Positions 1 through 10,504 of a stretch of 64,000 nt of DNA are shown here, in pieces (within the stretch, counting starts at the first letter, position 1; every line of letters begins with the position of its first letter). The translations under genes and the position numbers were made by a program. Source of the stretch: Thermoplasmata archaeon (GTDB lineage: Archaea > Thermoplasmatota > E2 > JACPAO01 > JAHFTW01); assembly GCA_034667725.1 (NCBI GenBank), contig JAXDQS010000002.1:32001-96000 (forward strand). The letters run 5' to 3'. A model generated the notes under the pieces. That model ran no database searches and had not been told where the DNA came from. It worked only from the letters and a program-made list of their open reading frames with translations.

Positions 1-224
1 AAAGAAGCCAACGCTTGAACGAAGAGGCGGCAATCTTCGTCCTGATGCATCCAGTCCAAGTCCTCACGAACGAGTCCTTGCCAATGGTGATTGAGGTCAG
101 TTTGTGGGCCTGCTTTGCACTCCTCCACGAGCTTATCGTGGAGCTTAACAAGTTCGTGGTTGAACGACCGGATCTTGCCGCCACTTGGACGCCGTCCGTC
201 CACATGCCAACGACGCAAAACTAA
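1..224 (+). CDS. possible 3' end of a hypothetical gene entering from the left edge
   Basis: Frame open from position 3 to TAA at 222-224; no recognisable motif. Confidence 0.3.
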   Translation, partial: RSQRLNEEAAIFVLMHPVQVLTNESLPMVIEVSLWACFALLHELIVELNKFVVERPDLAATWTPSVHMPTTQN

Positions 225-572
225 CGCAATCTTGAGCATGCGTTCGAATCCGTAGGTGTAGAAGAGTAGCGGAGCTGTGTAGAAGTTGTTGGAGCCGGAG
301 ATCTCTGCGGTTGCTCGATGTCCCTGATGGATTGCTCGCGAAACCGCTTCCAGTTCCAGAAGGATGCCGCCCCTCTCGGTGACGTCCGGCGTCCCCTTGG
401 AGGGCCAACGTTCCTTCGTAGACGGCGGTGGAATTGGGGGCGACTGATGAAACGAGTCTGGGTGCACAGCGGGTAGAGACCATTAGCCCTTCATGAGGAT
501 GGAACAACGACTCGCCAGGCCGAACGCTCAACGAAGCCTGGGAATTTGGGCCGCACAGAACAGTTGCCCAGC

Positions 573-1580
573 CTAGGCCGCCTCAACCTGCATGCGTTTT
601 CGCCACCATGCTCGAAGGTCACGGCTGAGAGCGAGACCGAACATCACAACCAGGAACACCGCTACGGCAATCAAGGCGCTGAGCGTCTGAAGTTCCGATT
701 GCAGGGAAGGGGATGACTCCTGCGACCTCAGCCATGTCCATCCACTGCCAAGAGTCGAGGGCAGGTACAAAGCGCATAGAAGTGACCAAGCCAGGAAAGC
801 CGCGATGCAGAATCCGACCCTAAGACTGCGGCGCGGAATCAGCTTGGCGAGAAGCGGGCGCCGCCTCAGGAAACCCGTGGGCAACACGATTACCACCACC
901 GTGCCTGCGACCATCGCCCACTCTCGCACATCGTTCAACTTGATTTGGCGAGTCCGGACCTGGCCTTCCAGCCACCAAGCTGAAACAAGTGTGAAGGCGA
1001 CGAGAACTGCGAACATGAGGATGGTGTTGCGCTGCCGCTGAAACGCTTTCTTGACGTTTGCCCGCGCTTCTTTCAGCACCTCGTCATACGACTGCACCGG
1101 AGTCGTATCCTTCTTGCGAGTGTCAATGAACTTCTGCTTATGGACAATCATGGTCGCTTCAAGGGTCTCGGACATGTCGCGCTGTAGCGTTCTGGAAGAA
1201 TACATCCAGCGCGAGAAGGCGCGACCCGCAAGGAAGACCGACCCCACAAAGATCGCGAAGGCCACAAGTTGTGGGGTCGACTCGGCGTCACGGGCCATAA
1301 TCATGAAAATGAACGAGAGGAGCGCCATTCCAGCCCACCAGAGCGCGTTTGGCCCAGCATTGGAGTACGCGGCCTCATGGGCTTGAAGGCGGCGCAGGGT
1401 TTGCGCTCGATATGCATGGCTCACAGGGTCGTTCCGTGCTTCAGCTGACGCAGTCGCCTGCTCCAGCTGGAGGAGCTCGCCCGCGCGCCGATGCTCCTTC
1501 AGGCCCGCAAATTGCCACAGCGCGGCCCCCGCGGTCACAACAGCCGCAATGGTCTGCCAATGCCCGGTCGTCAACTCCAC
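573..1580 (-). CDS. multi-pass membrane protein, hypothetical (about 335 aa)
   Basis: ORF 573..1670 with about 7 hydrophobic segments. GTG start at 1580 (VELTTGHWQ) is supported by a decayed paralog starting ATG-AAA-CTC-ACT at 4132. Confidence 0.65.
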   Translation of the reverse strand: MELTTGHWQTIAAVVTAGAALWQFAGLKEHRRAGELLQLEQATASAEARNDPVSHAYRAQTLRRLQAHEAAYSNAGPNALWWAGMALLSFIFMIMARDAESTPQLVAFAIFVGSVFLAGRAFSRWMYSSRTLQRDMSETLEATMIVHKQKFIDTRKKDTTPVQSYDEVLKEARANVKKAFQRQRNTILMFAVLVAFTLVSAWWLEGQVRTRQIKLNDVREWAMVAGTVVVIVLPTGFLRRRPLLAKLIPRRSLRVGFCIAAFLAWSLLCALYLPSTLGSGWTWLRSQESSPSLQSELQTLSALIAVAVFLVVMFGLALSRDLRAWWRKRMQVEAA

Positions 1581-2151
1581 GGAGGCCAGCACCCCTACAT
1601 CCAATAAAAGGGCAAACGCGGTGGAATGCACACCGCCCAGCCGGCTTAGGTCAAATGGTCCGCAATCCAACCTTAAAGTCTTGCCGAAACGGAGTAGACC
1701 GTTGGAGTAAAAAGAGGCCTAAGAACATGGAGGGGCCAGTTCGACTGACCGCAACCCTCGCCCCGAGCCTAGGAAACTTTGAGGCGGGGGTTGCGGCCGT
1801 GTATGCTCTGGCGGATTCCGCCCCCAAGCTACTTGGAGGCGGGCCGCCAGACGGTATCCCCATCGGGCGGTCCTAACTGGGACCGAGGATGTAGGATGCC
1901 CAAGAAATCCCTTCCGAAACGATTCAAGGTCAGAGAGCCTGCTCGCTCCTGTGGAACTCTTGGCCACTCACAAGCCCCCCCGAAAACATGGGGTGAGGGG
2001 GCTTCAATCCCACAATGTTTGTGGATTAGGGCTATTAACCCTTCCGATTTGGCCCGCAAGCCGCGTGGGTCGCTGAAAAGCATCTCACCGCAGCCGGAGC
2101 CTACCCTGCATGGTCCCCCAAGTTCTTGCATTCCGGGAGGAGGGGGCACAA

Positions 2152-2694
2152 GTGAATAGCGGGCCAAGGACCCTTTCGGAGCAAGAGCGCAAGGACTTGG
2201 TGCTGTTCCTGCTCAGCAAACGGTCCATCAAGCCGGTCGATGCAAAAGCAGAGGCCTCCGATGGAGGGCACAGCCTTCTCCATACGGCAATGTCCATTCT
2301 GGATGCCAAACTAGAGAAGAAAGGGCTTGATCTGGGGTACGACTTCAACCAGTATCTCTTGTACCCAAGTGACTCTAGGCTGAACCGTGATGTGTTCCAA
2401 CTTTACCACAGCGAACTAATCGAGAACGAAGACGGTGAACCGGAACGGCAGTTGCCAATTCGGCACATTGAAGTCACGCCAGCAGGTAAGAATCATATCC
2501 GATTTTTTGGCGTGGAGTCAAGTCTGGCTCGTGCCCTAGCAGGAAAGGAGATTCGGCTTAGCGAAGTTACAGCCATTTGGCAAGACTTGCTTAGCAAGCC
2601 GATGGCAGAACTCCTTAACCTAGAAATCAAGGCCCGCAATCGCGAGGCCTCCATGAAAGAATTTGAAGATGCCGTCAGCACTCTTATAGACTAG
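2152..2694 (+). CDS. winged-helix/Panacea (SocA, DUF4065)-like protein
   Basis: GTG after GGAGGAGG; pattern GYDFxxYxxYPxDxxLxxDVxxLxxxELI…VTPAG resembles Panacea/YwgA-like antitoxin folds. Confidence 0.5.
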   Translation: MNSGPRTLSEQERKDLVLFLLSKRSIKPVDAKAEASDGGHSLLHTAMSILDAKLEKKGLDLGYDFNQYLLYPSDSRLNRDVFQLYHSELIENEDGEPERQLPIRHIEVTPAGKNHIRFFGVESSLARALAGKEIRLSEVTAIWQDLLSKPMAELLNLEIKARNREASMKEFEDAVSTLID

Positions 2695-2713
2695 ACAAAT
2701 TGGGGGGGAGTAG

Positions 2714-3835
2714 ATGCTAGTCGGTCGTGGAGCAGGCATTGTCCTCGCCCTTAGCCAGTACGATCGCGATGGGACACTCCTCAACCGAGCTGCTTCCGAC
2801 CTTCGGAAAAAGGACGGCAAGAGCCGCTATGACATCATTGAATCAAGTGCGTCTGGATTATCCATGAGGTTTTCGGAGACTTACCTCTCTAAATTCTCCA
2901 CGGTGCAATGGGGTGCAAGGCTGGGCTCGGCCCAAGGCGCGGAGAGCCGTCTAAAGGCCTTGAAAGCCGTAATGCGTAGCATCACAATGAAGATTCACAT
3001 CTTAGACGGAGTTCTCGCCGTTGAATTTCACGTGGATTCTACGGTAGCCCCTCTAGTGACAATCATCGACCGAACACCCATAGTTGGCCCTGGGCTCCGC
3101 GGGGAAATGGAAACACACTTCCTCGATTATGTGATGGACGTGACAGCGCTCGTACATGAAACAAGTGACAAGAAGTTCGTGTCGTTGAACGTTTTTAGCA
3201 TCGTCTCCGCATTCTCGTTTTCTGGAACTGGCGCCGTAGCAAGTGAGAATGCTCTCTTTCAAGAGATTCGGCAGAAGTTGCGGGACCAACACCACGACAA
3301 CATCGACAAGGTCGAGCGCTTTGAAAGCGAGGTGCGTACCCGCAAGCGGCGCTATCTTATCCGCAGGAAGTCCAAGTATCGCATAGAATGGCAGTTCCCG
3401 AGCACTTTGCAAAAATGGATTACCGAAGAAATCGAGCGGCAAAGAAGTCACCACTGGCAGGCCATTTACCTTGCGGGATGCATGAGAAATTGCCGACAAC
3501 GGAAACACAGCACGCTGCGTCGGCTGGCAGATGACATGGATCACTATGCCCCCCTCTATGAGGTGAGGCGGGAAATGCTGGGATCTCTCCGAGACCAAAT
3601 CGGCTTTCAACTGGCCACCAAGGGCCTTCTCGCGGGCTTCGTCCTTTTCGCGGTTGCTTTCCTTCTTGCCATCAAAGCCGCTCCGTTTGACAACTGGTCC
3701 GCACGCTATGCAACGATTGGCTTCATTCCTTTAGTTGGATGGGTTGGTTACTGGTATGTGATGCATGGCATTACTAGGAGCTTGGAGTTGGAAATTGGGA
3801 AAACATCCATGCTTCACAGTCGGGCAAAACAGTAG
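2714..3835 (+). CDS. hypothetical protein with two C-terminal TM helices (candidate membrane effector/toxin)
   Basis: 373-aa ORF 19 nt after the previous gene, with a G-rich SD; helical soluble region, then TM1 (GLLAGFVLFAVAFLLAI) and TM2 (ATIGFIPLVGWVGYWYVM). Confidence 0.65.
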   Translation: MLVGRGAGIVLALSQYDRDGTLLNRAASDLRKKDGKSRYDIIESSASGLSMRFSETYLSKFSTVQWGARLGSAQGAESRLKALKAVMRSITMKIHILDGVLAVEFHVDSTVAPLVTIIDRTPIVGPGLRGEMETHFLDYVMDVTALVHETSDKKFVSLNVFSIVSAFSFSGTGAVASENALFQEIRQKLRDQHHDNIDKVERFESEVRTRKRRYLIRRKSKYRIEWQFPSTLQKWITEEIERQRSHHWQAIYLAGCMRNCRQRKHSTLRRLADDMDHYAPLYEVRREMLGSLRDQIGFQLATKGLLAGFVLFAVAFLLAIKAAPFDNWSARYATIGFIPLVGWVGYWYVMHGITRSLELEIGKTSMLHSRAKQ

Positions 3836-3999
3836 TCCCTAGCCTATTCAGTGGGGAGCCGCATGGATGACTGGCGACAGCGCTGAACCACGGCGCAGGG
3901 CGAAGCAAAACGCTACAGAGATTACCGGCGCGGCACCAAGGCGCCGACTGCTACACTCCGCTGCGCTGTCGAGTGATGTGCCCCAAAGGCGCGTATGGC

Positions 4000-4132
4000 T
4001 CGTTCATGCCCTTGCTTGTTCCGGTTCAGGAGTTAGCCCGCACGGCGGTGCTCCTTCAACCTGCGAATTGCCACAGCGCGGCGACGGCCACCACAGCCGC
4101 GATGACTTGCCAATGCCCGTAGTGAGTTTCAT
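4000..4132 (-). pseudogene. decayed 5' fragment paralogous to the 573..1580 membrane gene
   Basis: Reads MKLT/GHWQVIAAVVAVAALWQFAG/LKEHRRAG* with frameshifts and a stop, versus VELTTGHWQTIAAVVTAGAALWQFAGLKEHRRAGE; GGAGGT SD upstream. Confidence 0.75.
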
Positions 4133-4185
4133 GCTGAGTTACCTCCATGCTGACAATGCAATGACTTAGGCGGACAGGAACTATT

Positions 4186-5802
4186 CTACGGGGCAATGAC
4201 CGGCTTACTTGGTAGGCTCCAGTACCCGCGGTACCACTGCTGAATCACAGGATTCTGGCAAAGACATCCTTCAGCGGGCTCGCCAATCGGGATCTCAGCG
4301 CTCGTCGACTTCCAGCGCAGACTATCTCCTTGCACCCGATTAGGGACCTGCTGGTAGCCAATCGCTCGCAGGATGATTGCCGACGTGGCATGGATTCCCA
4401 CGATTACCGGCACGTGCGGAACGGGCGGAGCTGCAATCCGGTCGTTGCCAACTTGGGCGCCTTGTCCGCAGATTCCCTCGATGAGTTTCTTCAACGGTTG
4501 CCCGAGGAATTGGGATATGTACGTGTCCGAGAATCCTTTGGCGCGTTGCAAGTCGTCCAAGTCAGCTTTGGTCAATGTCTTGGATGGGTCTTCGAGGTAG
4601 GCTCGAACGCGCGCCAAGGGCCAGCCTACCTGACGTGCCTTGAACTCCATGGCAGTTCCAGGATCATCAGTCTTCGAGTGGTACTGGCAAGCCATGCATG
4701 CTTGGTCGCCAATGCGGTGAATAGAGTAGCCCCATGAGTTGAGCGCGTCTCCGCTGTCGGTCCATACATTCATGACCTGCTCGTGGAGCCCGAACTGGAT
4801 GTCACGGCGGGTTACCGCTGAGTCGACCGCCGCCACCACTAGGCGACGGGGGCGAGCGCCATCCAAGTCGGTCCAGCCGAGGTAGGTGAGCGGTGGCGCC
4901 AGGTATTCGATTTGGAGTAGTGGCAGGATGGCCCAGCCTGGTGAACCGGCACTTAGCCCCAGTGCGTGTCGCGGCTCGAAGCGGGTCGGCATCGCGGCTG
5001 GATAGACGGGGGCCGGAGCCGGGAATTGAACTTGGAGTAAGGGATGGTGCGAAGCAAGGACGTGACGTGCAACCTGCGGTTTGTATTGCCCGACTGCCTT
5101 CTGGGTAGCCAGCAAGTAGCGCTCCATGTTGCCTTGGTCGATGAACTCGTGATCGACCAGGTCGATTCGCCCAGCTAGATTTGGCAGGGTGGTAAGAGCG
5201 TGACAGATTGCTTGGCCGACGGCGCCCACGCCGACCAACGTGACGTCGATGATGGGGGTAGCCGCGTCTAAGGCGGGAGCATCGGGTGGGCTGGAGCCTC
5301 CGCGTCCAGTGATAAGGTCCCAGGTGGCTTGCCCATCCAAGAGGCGAATGCCTTCGATTGTGTCCTTGAACGCGACGTTGAACACGTGTTGAGCGGCCAG
5401 GCTTGCGGCGTAGAGAGCTGCCAGTACGTTGTTGCCTTGGCAGCCGGGTGGCTGGGTTGTTGAGATGGCTGCGGCCCAAGACTGGAAATCTGCGTGTATG
5501 TGGGGCACGGCTACTGTGGAGTCTTGCAGCACGACAGTCATGTCTGGAGTGACGCCCGGCTGGAATTGGACTTGATTCACCAGACTTCCTACGTGAGCTT
5601 GGCGAGCGGGATCTTGAACGCCTTCGACGGTCAAGTTGCGGAAGGTTCGGCCAAGGATGCCGATGGCAAGGCGGGCTTGTTCCAAGCGGATTGGGTTGTT
5701 CTCGTCGACCACCACGTGGACCTTGAAGTTCTGGCAAATGGCTTCGACGTTGGCACGGGGAGCGCGCGTCATTGCTAGCGTGCCTGCGGTTACGCGGTTC
5801 AT
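4186..5802 (-). CDS. E1/ThiF-family ubiquitin-like activating enzyme (BilD-like)
   Basis: VGVGAVG nucleotide-binding motif, DHEFIDQGNMERY, AVDS..R, Zn ligands CMAC and CLC, candidate catalytic Cys in ICG; ATG at 5802 overlaps the JAB stop (ATGA). Confidence 0.9.
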   Translation of the reverse strand: MNRVTAGTLAMTRAPRANVEAICQNFKVHVVVDENNPIRLEQARLAIGILGRTFRNLTVEGVQDPARQAHVGSLVNQVQFQPGVTPDMTVVLQDSTVAVPHIHADFQSWAAAISTTQPPGCQGNNVLAALYAASLAAQHVFNVAFKDTIEGIRLLDGQATWDLITGRGGSSPPDAPALDAATPIIDVTLVGVGAVGQAICHALTTLPNLAGRIDLVDHEFIDQGNMERYLLATQKAVGQYKPQVARHVLASHHPLLQVQFPAPAPVYPAAMPTRFEPRHALGLSAGSPGWAILPLLQIEYLAPPLTYLGWTDLDGARPRRLVVAAVDSAVTRRDIQFGLHEQVMNVWTDSGDALNSWGYSIHRIGDQACMACQYHSKTDDPGTAMEFKARQVGWPLARVRAYLEDPSKTLTKADLDDLQRAKGFSDTYISQFLGQPLKKLIEGICGQGAQVGNDRIAAPPVPHVPVIVGIHATSAIILRAIGYQQVPNRVQGDSLRWKSTSAEIPIGEPAEGCLCQNPVIQQWYRGYWSLPSKPVIAP

Positions 5803-6287
5803 GGGTGGACCTTGACTAGTGCGCTCAATTCTTCTGATTCGAGTGTTCGCCCCCAGCCGGAACGGTCTCGGATGTAGCCCACGCAGTGCGGCCAATTCTT
5901 GAGTCCGAACCGTCCGAAGCAAGGCACAACGATGGAGATGCTGCCTTCTTGCGTGACTGTATCGTCAGCGTCGTCGGTGTCACTGTGAAAGGCATGGCCA
6001 GGATGCGTGTGAATCTGGATTGCGATTAGTCTCCCCGTGTCGGCTAAGTCTTGGTGGATTGGAATCAGGCTCCCAGGAGAGAGACGGACGCTAAGTGCTG
6101 TGGCGTGCTGCTCGGGCACGTACACCATGTCCAAGAGCAGAGTCTTGGAGTCTATGGGTTTTCCAGCGAGCAGTACCAGGCACTCGACGCCTTGGCTTCC
6201 GGCTTGCTGCAAAACGTTTTGGGCCGCTTGGAGGGCGTCAGATCCGACTCGGAATTCCATTATTGACTTCAAGTCGACTGGTTTCAT
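5799..6287 (-). CDS. JAB/MPN+ (JAMM) metallo-isopeptidase (BilC-like)
   Basis: E…HTHPGHAFHSDTD JAMM motif; starts immediately after the E2 stop. Confidence 0.9.
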   Translation of the reverse strand: MKPVDLKSIMEFRVGSDALQAAQNVLQQAGSQGVECLVLLAGKPIDSKTLLLDMVYVPEQHATALSVRLSPGSLIPIHQDLADTGRLIAIQIHTHPGHAFHSDTDDADDTVTQEGSISIVVPCFGRFGLKNWPHCVGYIRDRSGWGRTLESEELSALVKVHP

Positions 6288-6752
6288 CTAGTCCCTCTTG
6301 AGAAGTGAGACAACGTTGTTCACGATTCCGACTGGACCAAAGTTCGGGAGATGCCTTACGGACTCCCATGACAGTGCATCACCATAATCCTCATGGAATT
6401 CCCTTGTCCCTTCGACGCAGAAATATGCGCCTTGCCCAGGTCGTTTCGCATCATCCCAAACGTGGTTCTCCCCTCCTTCCCTGAGCAGGAAAGGAGCGAC
6501 CTCTTTCGAGGCCAGTCGCTTTGTGAAATCTGGTGTGCATGGGATTGCGCGAGGCGGCCGGTGCGGCCAATCCGTGGCGTCGAAGAGGATTCCCAGCTTG
6601 GCGTTCCGCTCCGAGTTGAGGACATGGACGGCCAAGTACGGGTACGCCACGTACACAACCTGCCAGTTGTGCTGGCTTGCAGAAGCACTTTGAATGGGGT
6701 CTGCGAACGAGGGGAAGAAGACGCGCCCCAGTTCGCCTGGGAAGACGGGCAC
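6288..6752 (-). CDS. E2-like conjugating enzyme, CEHH/'metal-binding' type (BilB-like)
   Basis: DWPHRPP (UBC-like YPxxPP) and FCVEGTREFH (CxxxxxEYH signature of PF14455); lies between the Ubl and JAB genes. Confidence 0.8.
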   Translation of the reverse strand: MPVFPGELGRVFFPSFADPIQSASASQHNWQVVYVAYPYLAVHVLNSERNAKLGILFDATDWPHRPPRAIPCTPDFTKRLASKEVAPFLLREGGENHVWDDAKRPGQGAYFCVEGTREFHEDYGDALSWESVRHLPNFGPVGIVNNVVSLLKRD

Positions 6753-6754
6753 GA

Positions 6755-7015
6755 CTAGGCCTTCTTGCCTGGCTTGTTGGACAAGATGATGGTCGCCTTT
6801 TCCGGGATGCCGGAATCCTTCCAGGACTTGCTCACGTCCACCGGCTTCCCATTGAAGGTAACATCGTACAAGGACAAGTCGTCCTTGTTTCCAGTGTCAC
6901 TCAAGGCCTTCTTGACAGCTACCTGGATTTTCTGGTTCTCGGGGTAGGAATCCTTGACGGCTTGGCCGTTGACGCTGATAGTGGCTTCGAATTTCTTGTC
7001 TGGTTTCTCGGGCAC
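6755..7015 (-). CDS. single-domain ubiquitin-like protein, DUF2604-like (BilA-like)
   Basis: 86 aa; VNGQ…N….AL..TGN…G..VD…G….IILS pattern; first gene of the E2/JAB/E1 operon; ends PGKKA. Confidence 0.8.
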   Translation of the reverse strand: MPEKPDKKFEATISVNGQAVKDSYPENQKIQVAVKKALSDTGNKDDLSLYDVTFNGKPVDVSKSWKDSGIPEKATIILSNKPGKKA

Positions 7016-10027: not shown

Positions 10028-10504
10028 CTACGGCGCCGCGCACACCTTGGCGAAGCGCAGCACCCGTTCGCCGAGCAGGTAGCCGGGCTGGACGACGCGC
10101 GACACGTGGCCGGGCGGCACGCCGTGGGCCGGCTCCTGCGCCAGCACCTCGTGGCGGGCGGGGTCCACCTTCTCGCCGACCGTCCCGAGGCGCACCAGGC
10201 CCTCGCGTTCGGCGAGGCGGTCGAACTCGCGGGCCAGCATCACGACGCCCTCCGACACCGGGCCCGGGTGGGCCTCGGCCTGGTGGGCGGCCATGTGCGC
10301 CAGCTCCAAAAGCGGCAGGAAGGACTCCAGGACGCGGGCCTTGTTGCGCTCGCGCTCCAGCTGCGCGTCGCGGTGGACGCGGCGTTGCAGGTTGTCGTAG
10401 TCGGCCCGGCAGCGGGCCAGGCGGTCGCGCAGGTCCGCCACCTCCGGCGCCATCTCCGGCGCCGCATCTGCCGCCTCTGCCGCCTCCTCCCCCTGCTCCT
10501 CCAT
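10028..10504 (-). CDS. grpE: nucleotide exchange factor GrpE
   Basis: ADYDNLQRR, DPARHE, QPGYLLGERVLRFAKV; real ATG lies inside the longer ORF. Confidence 0.9.
   Translation of the reverse strand: MEEQGEEAAEAADAAPEMAPEVADLRDRLARCRADYDNLQRRVHRDAQLERERNKARVLESFLPLLELAHMAAHQAEAHPGPVSEGVVMLAREFDRLAEREGLVRLGTVGEKVDPARHEVLAQEPAHGVPPGHVSRVVQPGYLLGERVLRFAKVCAAP

What the first reader, a model, noticed from the sequence alone, without database searches (positions are those of the whole stretch)
6755..6781. The Ubl ends in Ala (LSNKPGKKA), not Gly
Seen: TCC AAC AAG CCA GGC AAG AAG GCC TAG. As I recall them, DUF2604-type Ubls end roughly LSLKAGxGG, so Ala sits at the position normally activated. There are two options: (a) conjugation through a C-terminal Ala, as for some CBASS CD-NTases activated by Cap2; (b) the JAB clips KKA to expose G83, like Bil pre-processing, although G83 lies close to the last strand and may be too short to reach the E1 site. 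Either is a mechanistic variant.
Basis: partly seen in the sequence, partly recalled or inferred. Interest (0 to 1): 0.7.

Follow-up and report, generated by a model that had tools for sequence, protein, structure and literature searches.

The report
Alanine-ended ubiquitin-like tag, archaeal operon
A rare archaeal copy of a ubiquitin-style protein-tagging system encodes a tag with alanine where the studied members of its family have a glycine thought to be obligatory; all 13 close relatives found share this, so the tag is probably attached through alanine, though no experiment has shown it.

Summary
Observation confirmed. The gene at 7015-6755 (-) is an 86-aa DUF2604 beta-grasp protein ending Pro-Gly-Lys-Lys-Ala-stop. 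It is the first gene of an intact Ubl-E2-JAB-E1 operon of type II Bil layout in a Thermoplasmatota-family archaeon. Sequence and structure alignment to Ensifer aridi BilA put Gly83 on Gly94, so Ala86 sits on the reactive Gly97, published as universally conserved. It is no error or decay: 13 distinct homologues (27-82% identical) all keep Pro-Gly-x-Lys-Ala. Eleven stop there; two add unrelated 2- and 5-residue extensions, like the pro-tails after the Gly in known BilA. Gly83 is also invariant in Gly-ended BilA, where it is not the cut site, and in the E1 model it lies on the entry strand. Catalytic Cys and JAMM residues are intact, and the JABs of Ala operons form their own branch (100/98). Best reading (0.75): conjugation through Ala86. 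Clipping to Gly83: 0.08. Ala conjugation is known for CBASS cyclases; I found no report for a natural beta-grasp Ubl. The scan earlier noted Ala-ended tags in two other operon types (unchecked). No activity was tested.

The parts
6755..7015 (-). BilA-like ubiquitin-like protein, 86 aa, single beta-grasp domain (DUF2604)
   Evidence: PF10790 E 3.7e-9; AlphaFold2 model pLDDT 84, last strand 74-80; best PDB match E. aridi BilA, Z 12.2
6755..6772 (-). C-terminal tail Pro82-Gly83-Lys84-Lys85-Ala86 and TAG; Ala86 (6760-6758) at the position of the reactive Gly97 of E. aridi BilA; Gly83 (6769-6767) at Gly94
   Evidence: Pro, Gly, second Lys and Ala invariant in 13 of 13 homologues
6288..6752 (-). BilB-like E2, 154 aa; Cys112, Glu118 and His120 of the CEHH motif present, the His151 counterpart absent
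   Evidence: PADLOC BilB E 5.7e-6; hhalign to rhizobial BilB prob 84.8, E 6.6e-6; alignments
5799..6287 (-). BilC-like JAB/JAMM protease, 162 aa; Glu35, His93, His95, Ser102, Asp105 intact; Asp108, Thr110 and Gln113 specific to Ala-tag operons
   Evidence: PADLOC BilC E 2.6e-8; E. aridi BilC E 3.6e-11, Z 22.0, rmsd 2.0 over 158 residues
4186..5802 (-). BilD-like E1, 538 aa; Arg3 (= Arg9), GxGxxG 191-196, Arg228, Lys241, Asp327, zinc Cys 369/372/513/515, catalytic Cys445 (= Cys417)
   Evidence: PADLOC BilD E 2.9e-15; E. aridi BilD 8tyz E 7e-21; alignments
1..7000 (.). Lower-GC island (53-60% against 71% for the genome) that carries the operon; it runs on beyond the left edge of the window towards dnaK

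Best explanation
An Ala-activating variant of the type II Bil conjugation pathway. The Ubl is made already mature, ending in Ala86 (shown in the sequence). The E1 binds it, threads the tail along the strand at residues 345-349 and adenylates the Ala86 carboxylate (binding modelled, chemistry inferred). The Ubl passes as a thioester to E1 Cys445 and then E2 Cys112, and is joined to target lysines as an Ala-Lys isopeptide (inferred from BilD/BilB homology). The JAB cuts after Ala: it removes the tag from targets and, in relatives with extensions, trims the pro-tail; in this genome there is nothing to trim (inferred). The likely role is antiviral defence, by analogy with type I Bil and from the patchy, island-borne distribution (inferred, target unknown).
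For: (1) Register: Ala86 = Gly97 by sequence and structure; Gly97 is the adenylated residue and the BilC cut site (10.1101/2023.09.26.559546). (2) 13 of 13 homologues, median 37% identical, keep Pro-Gly-x-Lys-Ala, the same profile as Gly-x-[Gly/Ala]-Gly in Gly-ended relatives. (3) Two members in different subgroups carry unrelated extensions after the Ala (P0020, 2 residues; L012, 5 residues), as known BilA do after their Gly. (4) Catalytic Cys, ATP-site and JAMM residues are kept in all complete Ala operons aligned, and no second DUF2604 copy was found in this 90% complete genome. (5) JAB tree separates Ala from Gly operons at 100/98, while E1 and E2 trees leave them unresolved within one 100/100 group; this fits, but does not show, co-adaptation of the protease. 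(6) E1-Ubl model with ATP and Mg: score 0.86, best of 3 controls 0.00; the mark was reached by 58 of 80 solved complexes and 2 of 110 mismatched pairs; runs agree in at least 89% of contacts, partner pLDDT at least 86. Pro82/Gly83 pair with E1 345-349 and 373; Ubl 79-86 and E1 191, 193-196, 324-329 are in the interface. A like complex is solved (8tyz), so the pass may be from memory. (7) Chemistry has precedent: CD-NTases end in Gly or Ala and the E. cloacae Ala form is conjugated (PMC10097602); B. cereus cyclase Ala331 is linked to PspA lysines and removed without a scar by a Cap3 JAB (PMC11153139); engineered ubiquitin G76A is conjugated (PMC3185409).
Against: No biochemical test. No clear Ala pocket was identified in the E1: Ala-specific columns do not cluster at the ATP site (only 4 Ala E1s). 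Gly-to-Ala in an E. coli cGAS raised the thioester and lowered transfer, and this E2 lacks the His151 thought to assist catalysis, so transfer could be slow. The complex output lists no specific partner residue for Ala86. Most homologues were found with the Ubl itself, tail included, which may favour tail-sharers; only L012 came through the E2. Both extensions could alternatively be read as a reactive residue two places further out (Ala in P0020, Gly in L012).
Confidence: 0.75

Rival explanations
1. Lys-Lys-Ala is a pro-peptide: the JAB clips after Gly83 and the Ubl is conjugated through Gly83 on a shortened tail.
For: Gly83 is invariant. Bil JABs are proven pre-processing enzymes. The JABs of Ala operons have diverged as a group, which a shifted cut site would also explain. 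All characterised Bil and Bub Ubls use Gly.
Against: Gly83 is equally invariant in Gly-ended BilA, where Edman sequencing placed the cut three residues later. It lies 3 residues after the last strand, 3 short of BilA's and 2 short of the SUMO/ISG15 reactive Gly. In the E1 model it pairs with the entry strand 347-349. Known pro-tails are non-conserved, whereas Lys85 and Ala86 are invariant even when further residues follow.
Confidence: 0.08
2. The Ubl is bound or charged but not passed to targets efficiently, or acts non-covalently; the Ala stalls the cascade, for example as a stored thioester or a brake released on infection.
For: Gly-to-Ala increased the Cap2 thioester and reduced conjugation in E. 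coli CBASS. The E2 lacks the His151 counterpart.
Against: E2 Cys112 and the JAMM site are invariant across the clade; with 11 of 13 Ubls needing no trimming, an active JAB is best explained by conjugates to remove. One Gly-ended sister (L025) also lacks that His, so its loss does not track Ala. Natural Ala-ended CD-NTases conjugate.
Confidence: 0.12
3. Sequencing error at the stop or last codon, or a dead allele of a Gly-ended Ubl.
For: GCC is one base from GGC; raw reads were not checked.
Against: Thirteen distinct proteins from different samples share the Ala, with synonymous codon and stop variation; all four genes are intact and closely abutting or overlapping.
Confidence: 0.02

Closest known systems
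Type II BilABCD of Ensifer aridi TW10 (10.1101/2023.09.26.559546; PDB 8tyx, 8tyy, 8tyz, 8tz0)
   Same: Gene order Ubl-E2-JAB-E1, single DUF2604 beta-grasp Ubl, two-part E1 with catalytic Cys and zinc site, JAMM protease; best PDB match for Ubl, JAB and E1; optional variable extension after the reactive residue.
   Different: Reactive position is Ala preceded by Lys, not Gly preceded by Ala or Gly; E2 lacks His151; E1 has an insertion of about 50 residues; archaeal host. E. aridi's own terminal Ala98 is a clipped cap one residue beyond the Gly, which is not the case here.
Type II CBASS Cap2/Cap3 acting on Ala-ended CD-NTases (E. cloacae; B. cereus Ala331) (PMC10097602, PMC11153139)
   Same: E1/E2 thioester chemistry on a C-terminal Ala, Ala-Lys isopeptide, JAB cleavage after Ala.
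   Different: Substrate there is a nucleotide cyclase without a beta-grasp fold and the enzyme is an E2-E1 fusion; here a stand-alone Ubl and separate BilD- and BilB-type enzymes.
Type I BilABCD of Collimonas sp. OK412 (10.1101/2023.09.04.556158)
   Same: Same four functions and order; proven antiviral conjugation to a phage tail fibre gives the functional analogy.
   Different: Two-domain Ubl with a fully conserved terminal Gly (G163L abolishes defence).
Engineered ubiquitin G76A (as used in PMC3185409)
   Same: A beta-grasp protein ending in Ala can be conjugated.
   Different: Artificial; resists deubiquitinases, whereas here a dedicated JAB appears to have diverged with the tail.

Membership tests
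Type II BilABCD | Four-gene operon Ubl, E2, JAB, E1 | tested here: met
   same order in L001, L008, L012 and two contigs without DNA
Type II BilABCD | BilA: DUF2604-type beta-grasp Ubl | tested here: met
   PF10790 above cut-off; Z 12.2 to E. aridi BilA. No PADLOC model matched any of 15 members
Type II BilABCD | Universally conserved reactive Gly (Gly97) in BilA | tested here: not met
   Ala in 13 of 13 clade members at that register
Type II BilABCD | BilB CEHH motif (Cys138, Glu144, His146, His151) | tested here: not met
   Cys112, Glu118, His120 present; no His at the His151 place in this protein; four clade members have a His one place later
Type II BilABCD | BilC with intact JAMM site | tested here: met
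   Glu35, His93, His95, Asp105; Z 22.0 to 8tyx_B
Type II BilABCD | BilD with inactive and active adenylation domains, catalytic Cys, structural zinc Cys | tested here: met
   E 7e-21 to 8tyz_A; Arg3, Cys445, Cys 369/372/513/515 aligned
Type II BilABCD | Ubl conjugation to lysines; antiviral activity | not testable with these tools
   needs biochemistry and infection assays
Type II CBASS | CD-NTase substrate and Cap2 E2-E1 fusion | tested here: not met
   E1 and E2 are separate genes, only the ThiF part matches the E1-E2 models, and no CD-NTase family matched the seven island proteins scanned
Bub (DUF6527) operons | Cys-free E1 and E2 (Tyr and Ser oxyesters), fused genes, DUF6527 protease | tested here: not met
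   Invariant Cys445 and Cys112, unfused genes, no DUF6527 match among the proteins scanned

The most novel reading that the evidence does not exclude
A natural beta-grasp modifier family conjugated through Lys-Ala, with its own co-adapted JAB (acidic Asp108 reading Lys85), forming a tag that Gly-specific proteases of the host or of viruses cannot remove: an orthogonal, hard-to-erase antiviral ubiquitin-like mark in archaea.
Probability: 0.25. Interest if true: 0.8.

Novelty: new variant of a known kind. Interest (0 to 1): 0.63.

Why it matters
Papers on Bil call the terminal Gly of Ubls obligatory or universally conserved. A conserved clade with Ala at that exact position would be a natural exception among beta-grasp modifiers, none of which I found reported, and it has close Gly-ended sister operons (L010, L025) for direct comparison. 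That makes it testable what E1, E2 and JAMM enzymes must change to handle a side chain at the reactive residue. It also places a type II Bil-like pathway in archaea. The natural Lys85 gives a built-in tryptic remnant for finding targets, which are unknown for type II Bil (PMC11601603), and an Ala-specific tag and protease pair could serve as an orthogonal tool.

Tried and rejected
Degenerate allele or sequencing error: rejected by 13 homologues. Pyrrolysine read-through of TAG: no PylS over cut-off, no CTA tRNA, and one homologue uses TAA. Confusion with the E. aridi Gly-Ala pro-form: rejected, there the Ala lies one residue beyond the reactive Gly. Loss of E2 His151 as an Ala-specific change: not supported, one of two Gly-ended sisters lacks it too. 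An Ala pocket in the E1: none identified from 10 sequences. Single origin of the Ala clade: not shown; Ubl tree without tails 71/71, E2 66/98, E1 unresolved, JAB 100/98, all midpoint-rooted. Pattern scans of metagenome and viral contigs found no relatives; genome contigs gave one. tRNA attachment site: the ARAGORN call near the island lies inside dnaK and was rejected. Ubls upstream of E2 hits P0030-P0034 and P0039 were not read (look-up cap reached). Literature searches found no Ala-activated Bil Ubl and no archaeal Bil; the library lacks most subscription papers.

Full report
OBSERVATION. They end an 86-aa ORF, 7015-6755, which matches DUF2604 above the Pfam cut-off. Its AlphaFold2 model (pLDDT 84, last strand 74-80) has E. 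aridi BilA as best PDB match.

CONTEXT. Three genes follow closely on the same strand: an E2 (6752-6288), a JAB (6287-5799) and an E1 (5802-4186), matching PADLOC BilB, BilC and BilD. The E1 and JAB match the solved E. aridi BilD (E 7e-21) and BilC (E 3.6e-11; Z 22.0). Catalytic residues are in place: E1 Arg3, GxGxxG, Cys445 and four zinc Cys; E2 Cys112; JAB Glu35, His93, His95, Asp105. The operon sits in a 53-60% GC island of a 71% GC genome. A genome of the same family that carries the operon is a Thermoplasmatota MAG, so the host is an archaeon. The Ala-type Ubl was found in 2 of 401 genomes of the phylum searched and in none of the other genomes of its genus searched, a patchy spread typical of mobile defence genes (inference). 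Neighbours of two metagenomic copies have their best matches in this genus among the class genomes searched; bacteria were not searched for them.

REGISTER. In type II Bil the reactive residue is a Gly described as universally conserved, followed by up to nine non-conserved residues; in E. aridi it is Gly97, and BilC cuts between Gly97 and Ala98 (10.1101/2023.09.26.559546). The profile alignment places Gly83 on Gly94 without gaps in the tail, and the structure alignment gives 83 = 94 and 84 = 95. Extending this, Lys85 = Ala96 and Ala86 = Gly97. Against SUMO and ISG15 the reactive Gly falls on residue 85. Gly83 is therefore two to three residues short of these Ubls' reactive position. The terminal Ala here is not the E. 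aridi-type cap: no Gly precedes it.

CONSERVATION. Searches returned 13 distinct Ubls, 27-82% identical (median 37%), all with Pro-Gly-x-Lys-Ala. Four of the last five positions are invariant, against 4 of 73 in the core; position 84 varies. The next most similar proteins, and rhizobial plasmid BilA, have Gly-x-[Gly/Ala]-Gly in the same register. Eleven Ala members stop at the Ala. P0020 adds two residues and L012 five, each overlapping the E2 start, in different subgroups of the tree. This repeats the known pattern of a fixed reactive residue plus an optional variable tail. Caveat: most members were found with the Ubl, tail included; L012 was found through its E2, and the same search also reached a Gly-ended sister operon, L010.

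ENZYMES. In E1 and E2 trees the Ala operons and two Gly-ended sisters (L010, L025) form one group against the rhizobial operons (100/100) and are not resolved from each other. The JAB tree separates Ala from all Gly operons (100/98). Ala-operon JABs share Asp108, Thr110 and Gln113 just after the zinc ligand and have lost Trp40, Glu73 and Arg76 counterparts kept by Gly operons. That Asp108 reads Lys85 is a guess; that segment is poorly modelled. Kin share traits and the trees are midpoint-rooted, so this fits co-adaptation without showing it. No Ala pocket was identified in the E1.

MODEL. E1 with ATP, Mg and the Ubl scored 0.86, best of 3 controls 0.00; the mark was reached by 58 of 80 solved complexes and 2 of 110 mismatched pairs; runs agreed in at least 89% of contacts, partner pLDDT at least 86. 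Pro82 and Gly83 pair with E1 345-349 and 373; Ubl 79-86 and the E1 nucleotide-binding loop (191, 193-196) and 324-329 are in the interface. This fits Gly83 at the entry strand and the last residues at the ATP site, but no pair is listed for Ala86 and a like complex is solved (8tyz), so the result may come from memory.

MECHANISM. Most likely (0.75) the E1 adenylates Ala86, passes the Ubl to Cys445 and E2 Cys112, and it is linked to target lysines; the JAB cuts after Ala. Shown: sequence, register, conservation, intact residues. Inferred: all chemistry, the target and the antiviral role. The chemistry has precedent: CD-NTases of Cap2 operons end in Gly or Ala and the E. cloacae Ala form is conjugated (PMC10097602) and its Cap3 cuts at the C-terminus; B. 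cereus cyclase Ala331 is linked to PspA and removed without a scar (PMC11153139); ubiquitin G76A is conjugated but resists deubiquitination (PMC3185409). Rivals: clipping to Gly83 (0.08), since that Gly is shared with Gly-ended BilA, where it is not cut; stalled or non-covalent use (0.12), since Gly-to-Ala slowed transfer in one CBASS and this E2 lacks His151; error or decay (0.02).

COMPARISON AND NOVELTY. It works like type II Bil and descends from the same gene set, but fails two published defining features, the conserved Gly and the fourth residue of the CEHH motif, so I file it as a variant and not a canonical member. It is neither CBASS nor Bub. My literature searches found no Ala-activated beta-grasp Ubl and no archaeal Bil, within a library that lacks most subscription papers. 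Earlier notes of this scan report Ala-ended tags in a Bub-type cassette and in an operon whose tag has no ubiquitin fold; I did not check them. If right, the switch to Ala arose more than once.

VERDICT. Real, conserved and specific; new variant of a known kind; interest 0.63. A specialist would be surprised by the breach of the Gly rule in a true Ubl, less by the chemistry, which CBASS already shows. One intact-mass and thioester experiment would settle it.

Noticed in passing
window 6419-6380 (E2 motif); alignment A7: The E2 lacks the His151 of the CEHH motif, reported as highly conserved in type I and II BilB. Ala-clade members have Gly or Ala there, four have a His one place later; Gly sister L010 keeps a His, L025 does not.
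   Followed up: partly
window about 5040-4870 (E1 residues 255-310): An insertion of about 50 residues in the E1 adenylation domain, shared by Ala operons and Gly-ended sisters L010 and L025, absent from rhizobial BilD.
   Followed up: no
L010 2682-5831; L025 948-3814: Gly-ended sister operons from metagenomes, closer to the Ala clade than to rhizobial type II Bil; hosts not determined. Natural controls for the Gly-to-Ala switch.
   Followed up: partly
L027 13140-13234 (G000:C2:27139-27233): ARAGORN calls a tRNA-Leu that lies inside the 3' end of dnaK; probably a false call in GC-rich DNA. The island lies between dnaK and a grpE-like gene near window 10028-10500 (recognised by eye, not scanned).
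   Followed up: partly
window 2110-2694 and 2714-3835 (+), 573-1670 (-): Island genes converging on or near the E1 end with no family match above a cut-off; the 373-aa protein has a weak PADLOC PDC-M01B hit (E 0.0026).
   Followed up: no
L016 179-1716 (-), genome G008: Another archaeon of the phylum has a compact cluster of a Gly-Gly-ended ubiquitin-like gene, an E2-like gene with a C-terminal four-Cys motif and a ThiF-type E1 (read from the ORF list).
   Followed up: no
window 5922-5802: The ORF caller starts the E1 at TTG 5922 (578 aa); homologues and the ATGA overlap with the JAB stop support ATG 5802 (538 aa).
   Followed up: yes
L001 3338-5289; L008 6684-7523; L012 9542-11248: Other Ala-type operons lie beside an integrase, a primase-polymerase domain gene or HTH regulators, consistent with mobile elements.
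   Followed up: partly
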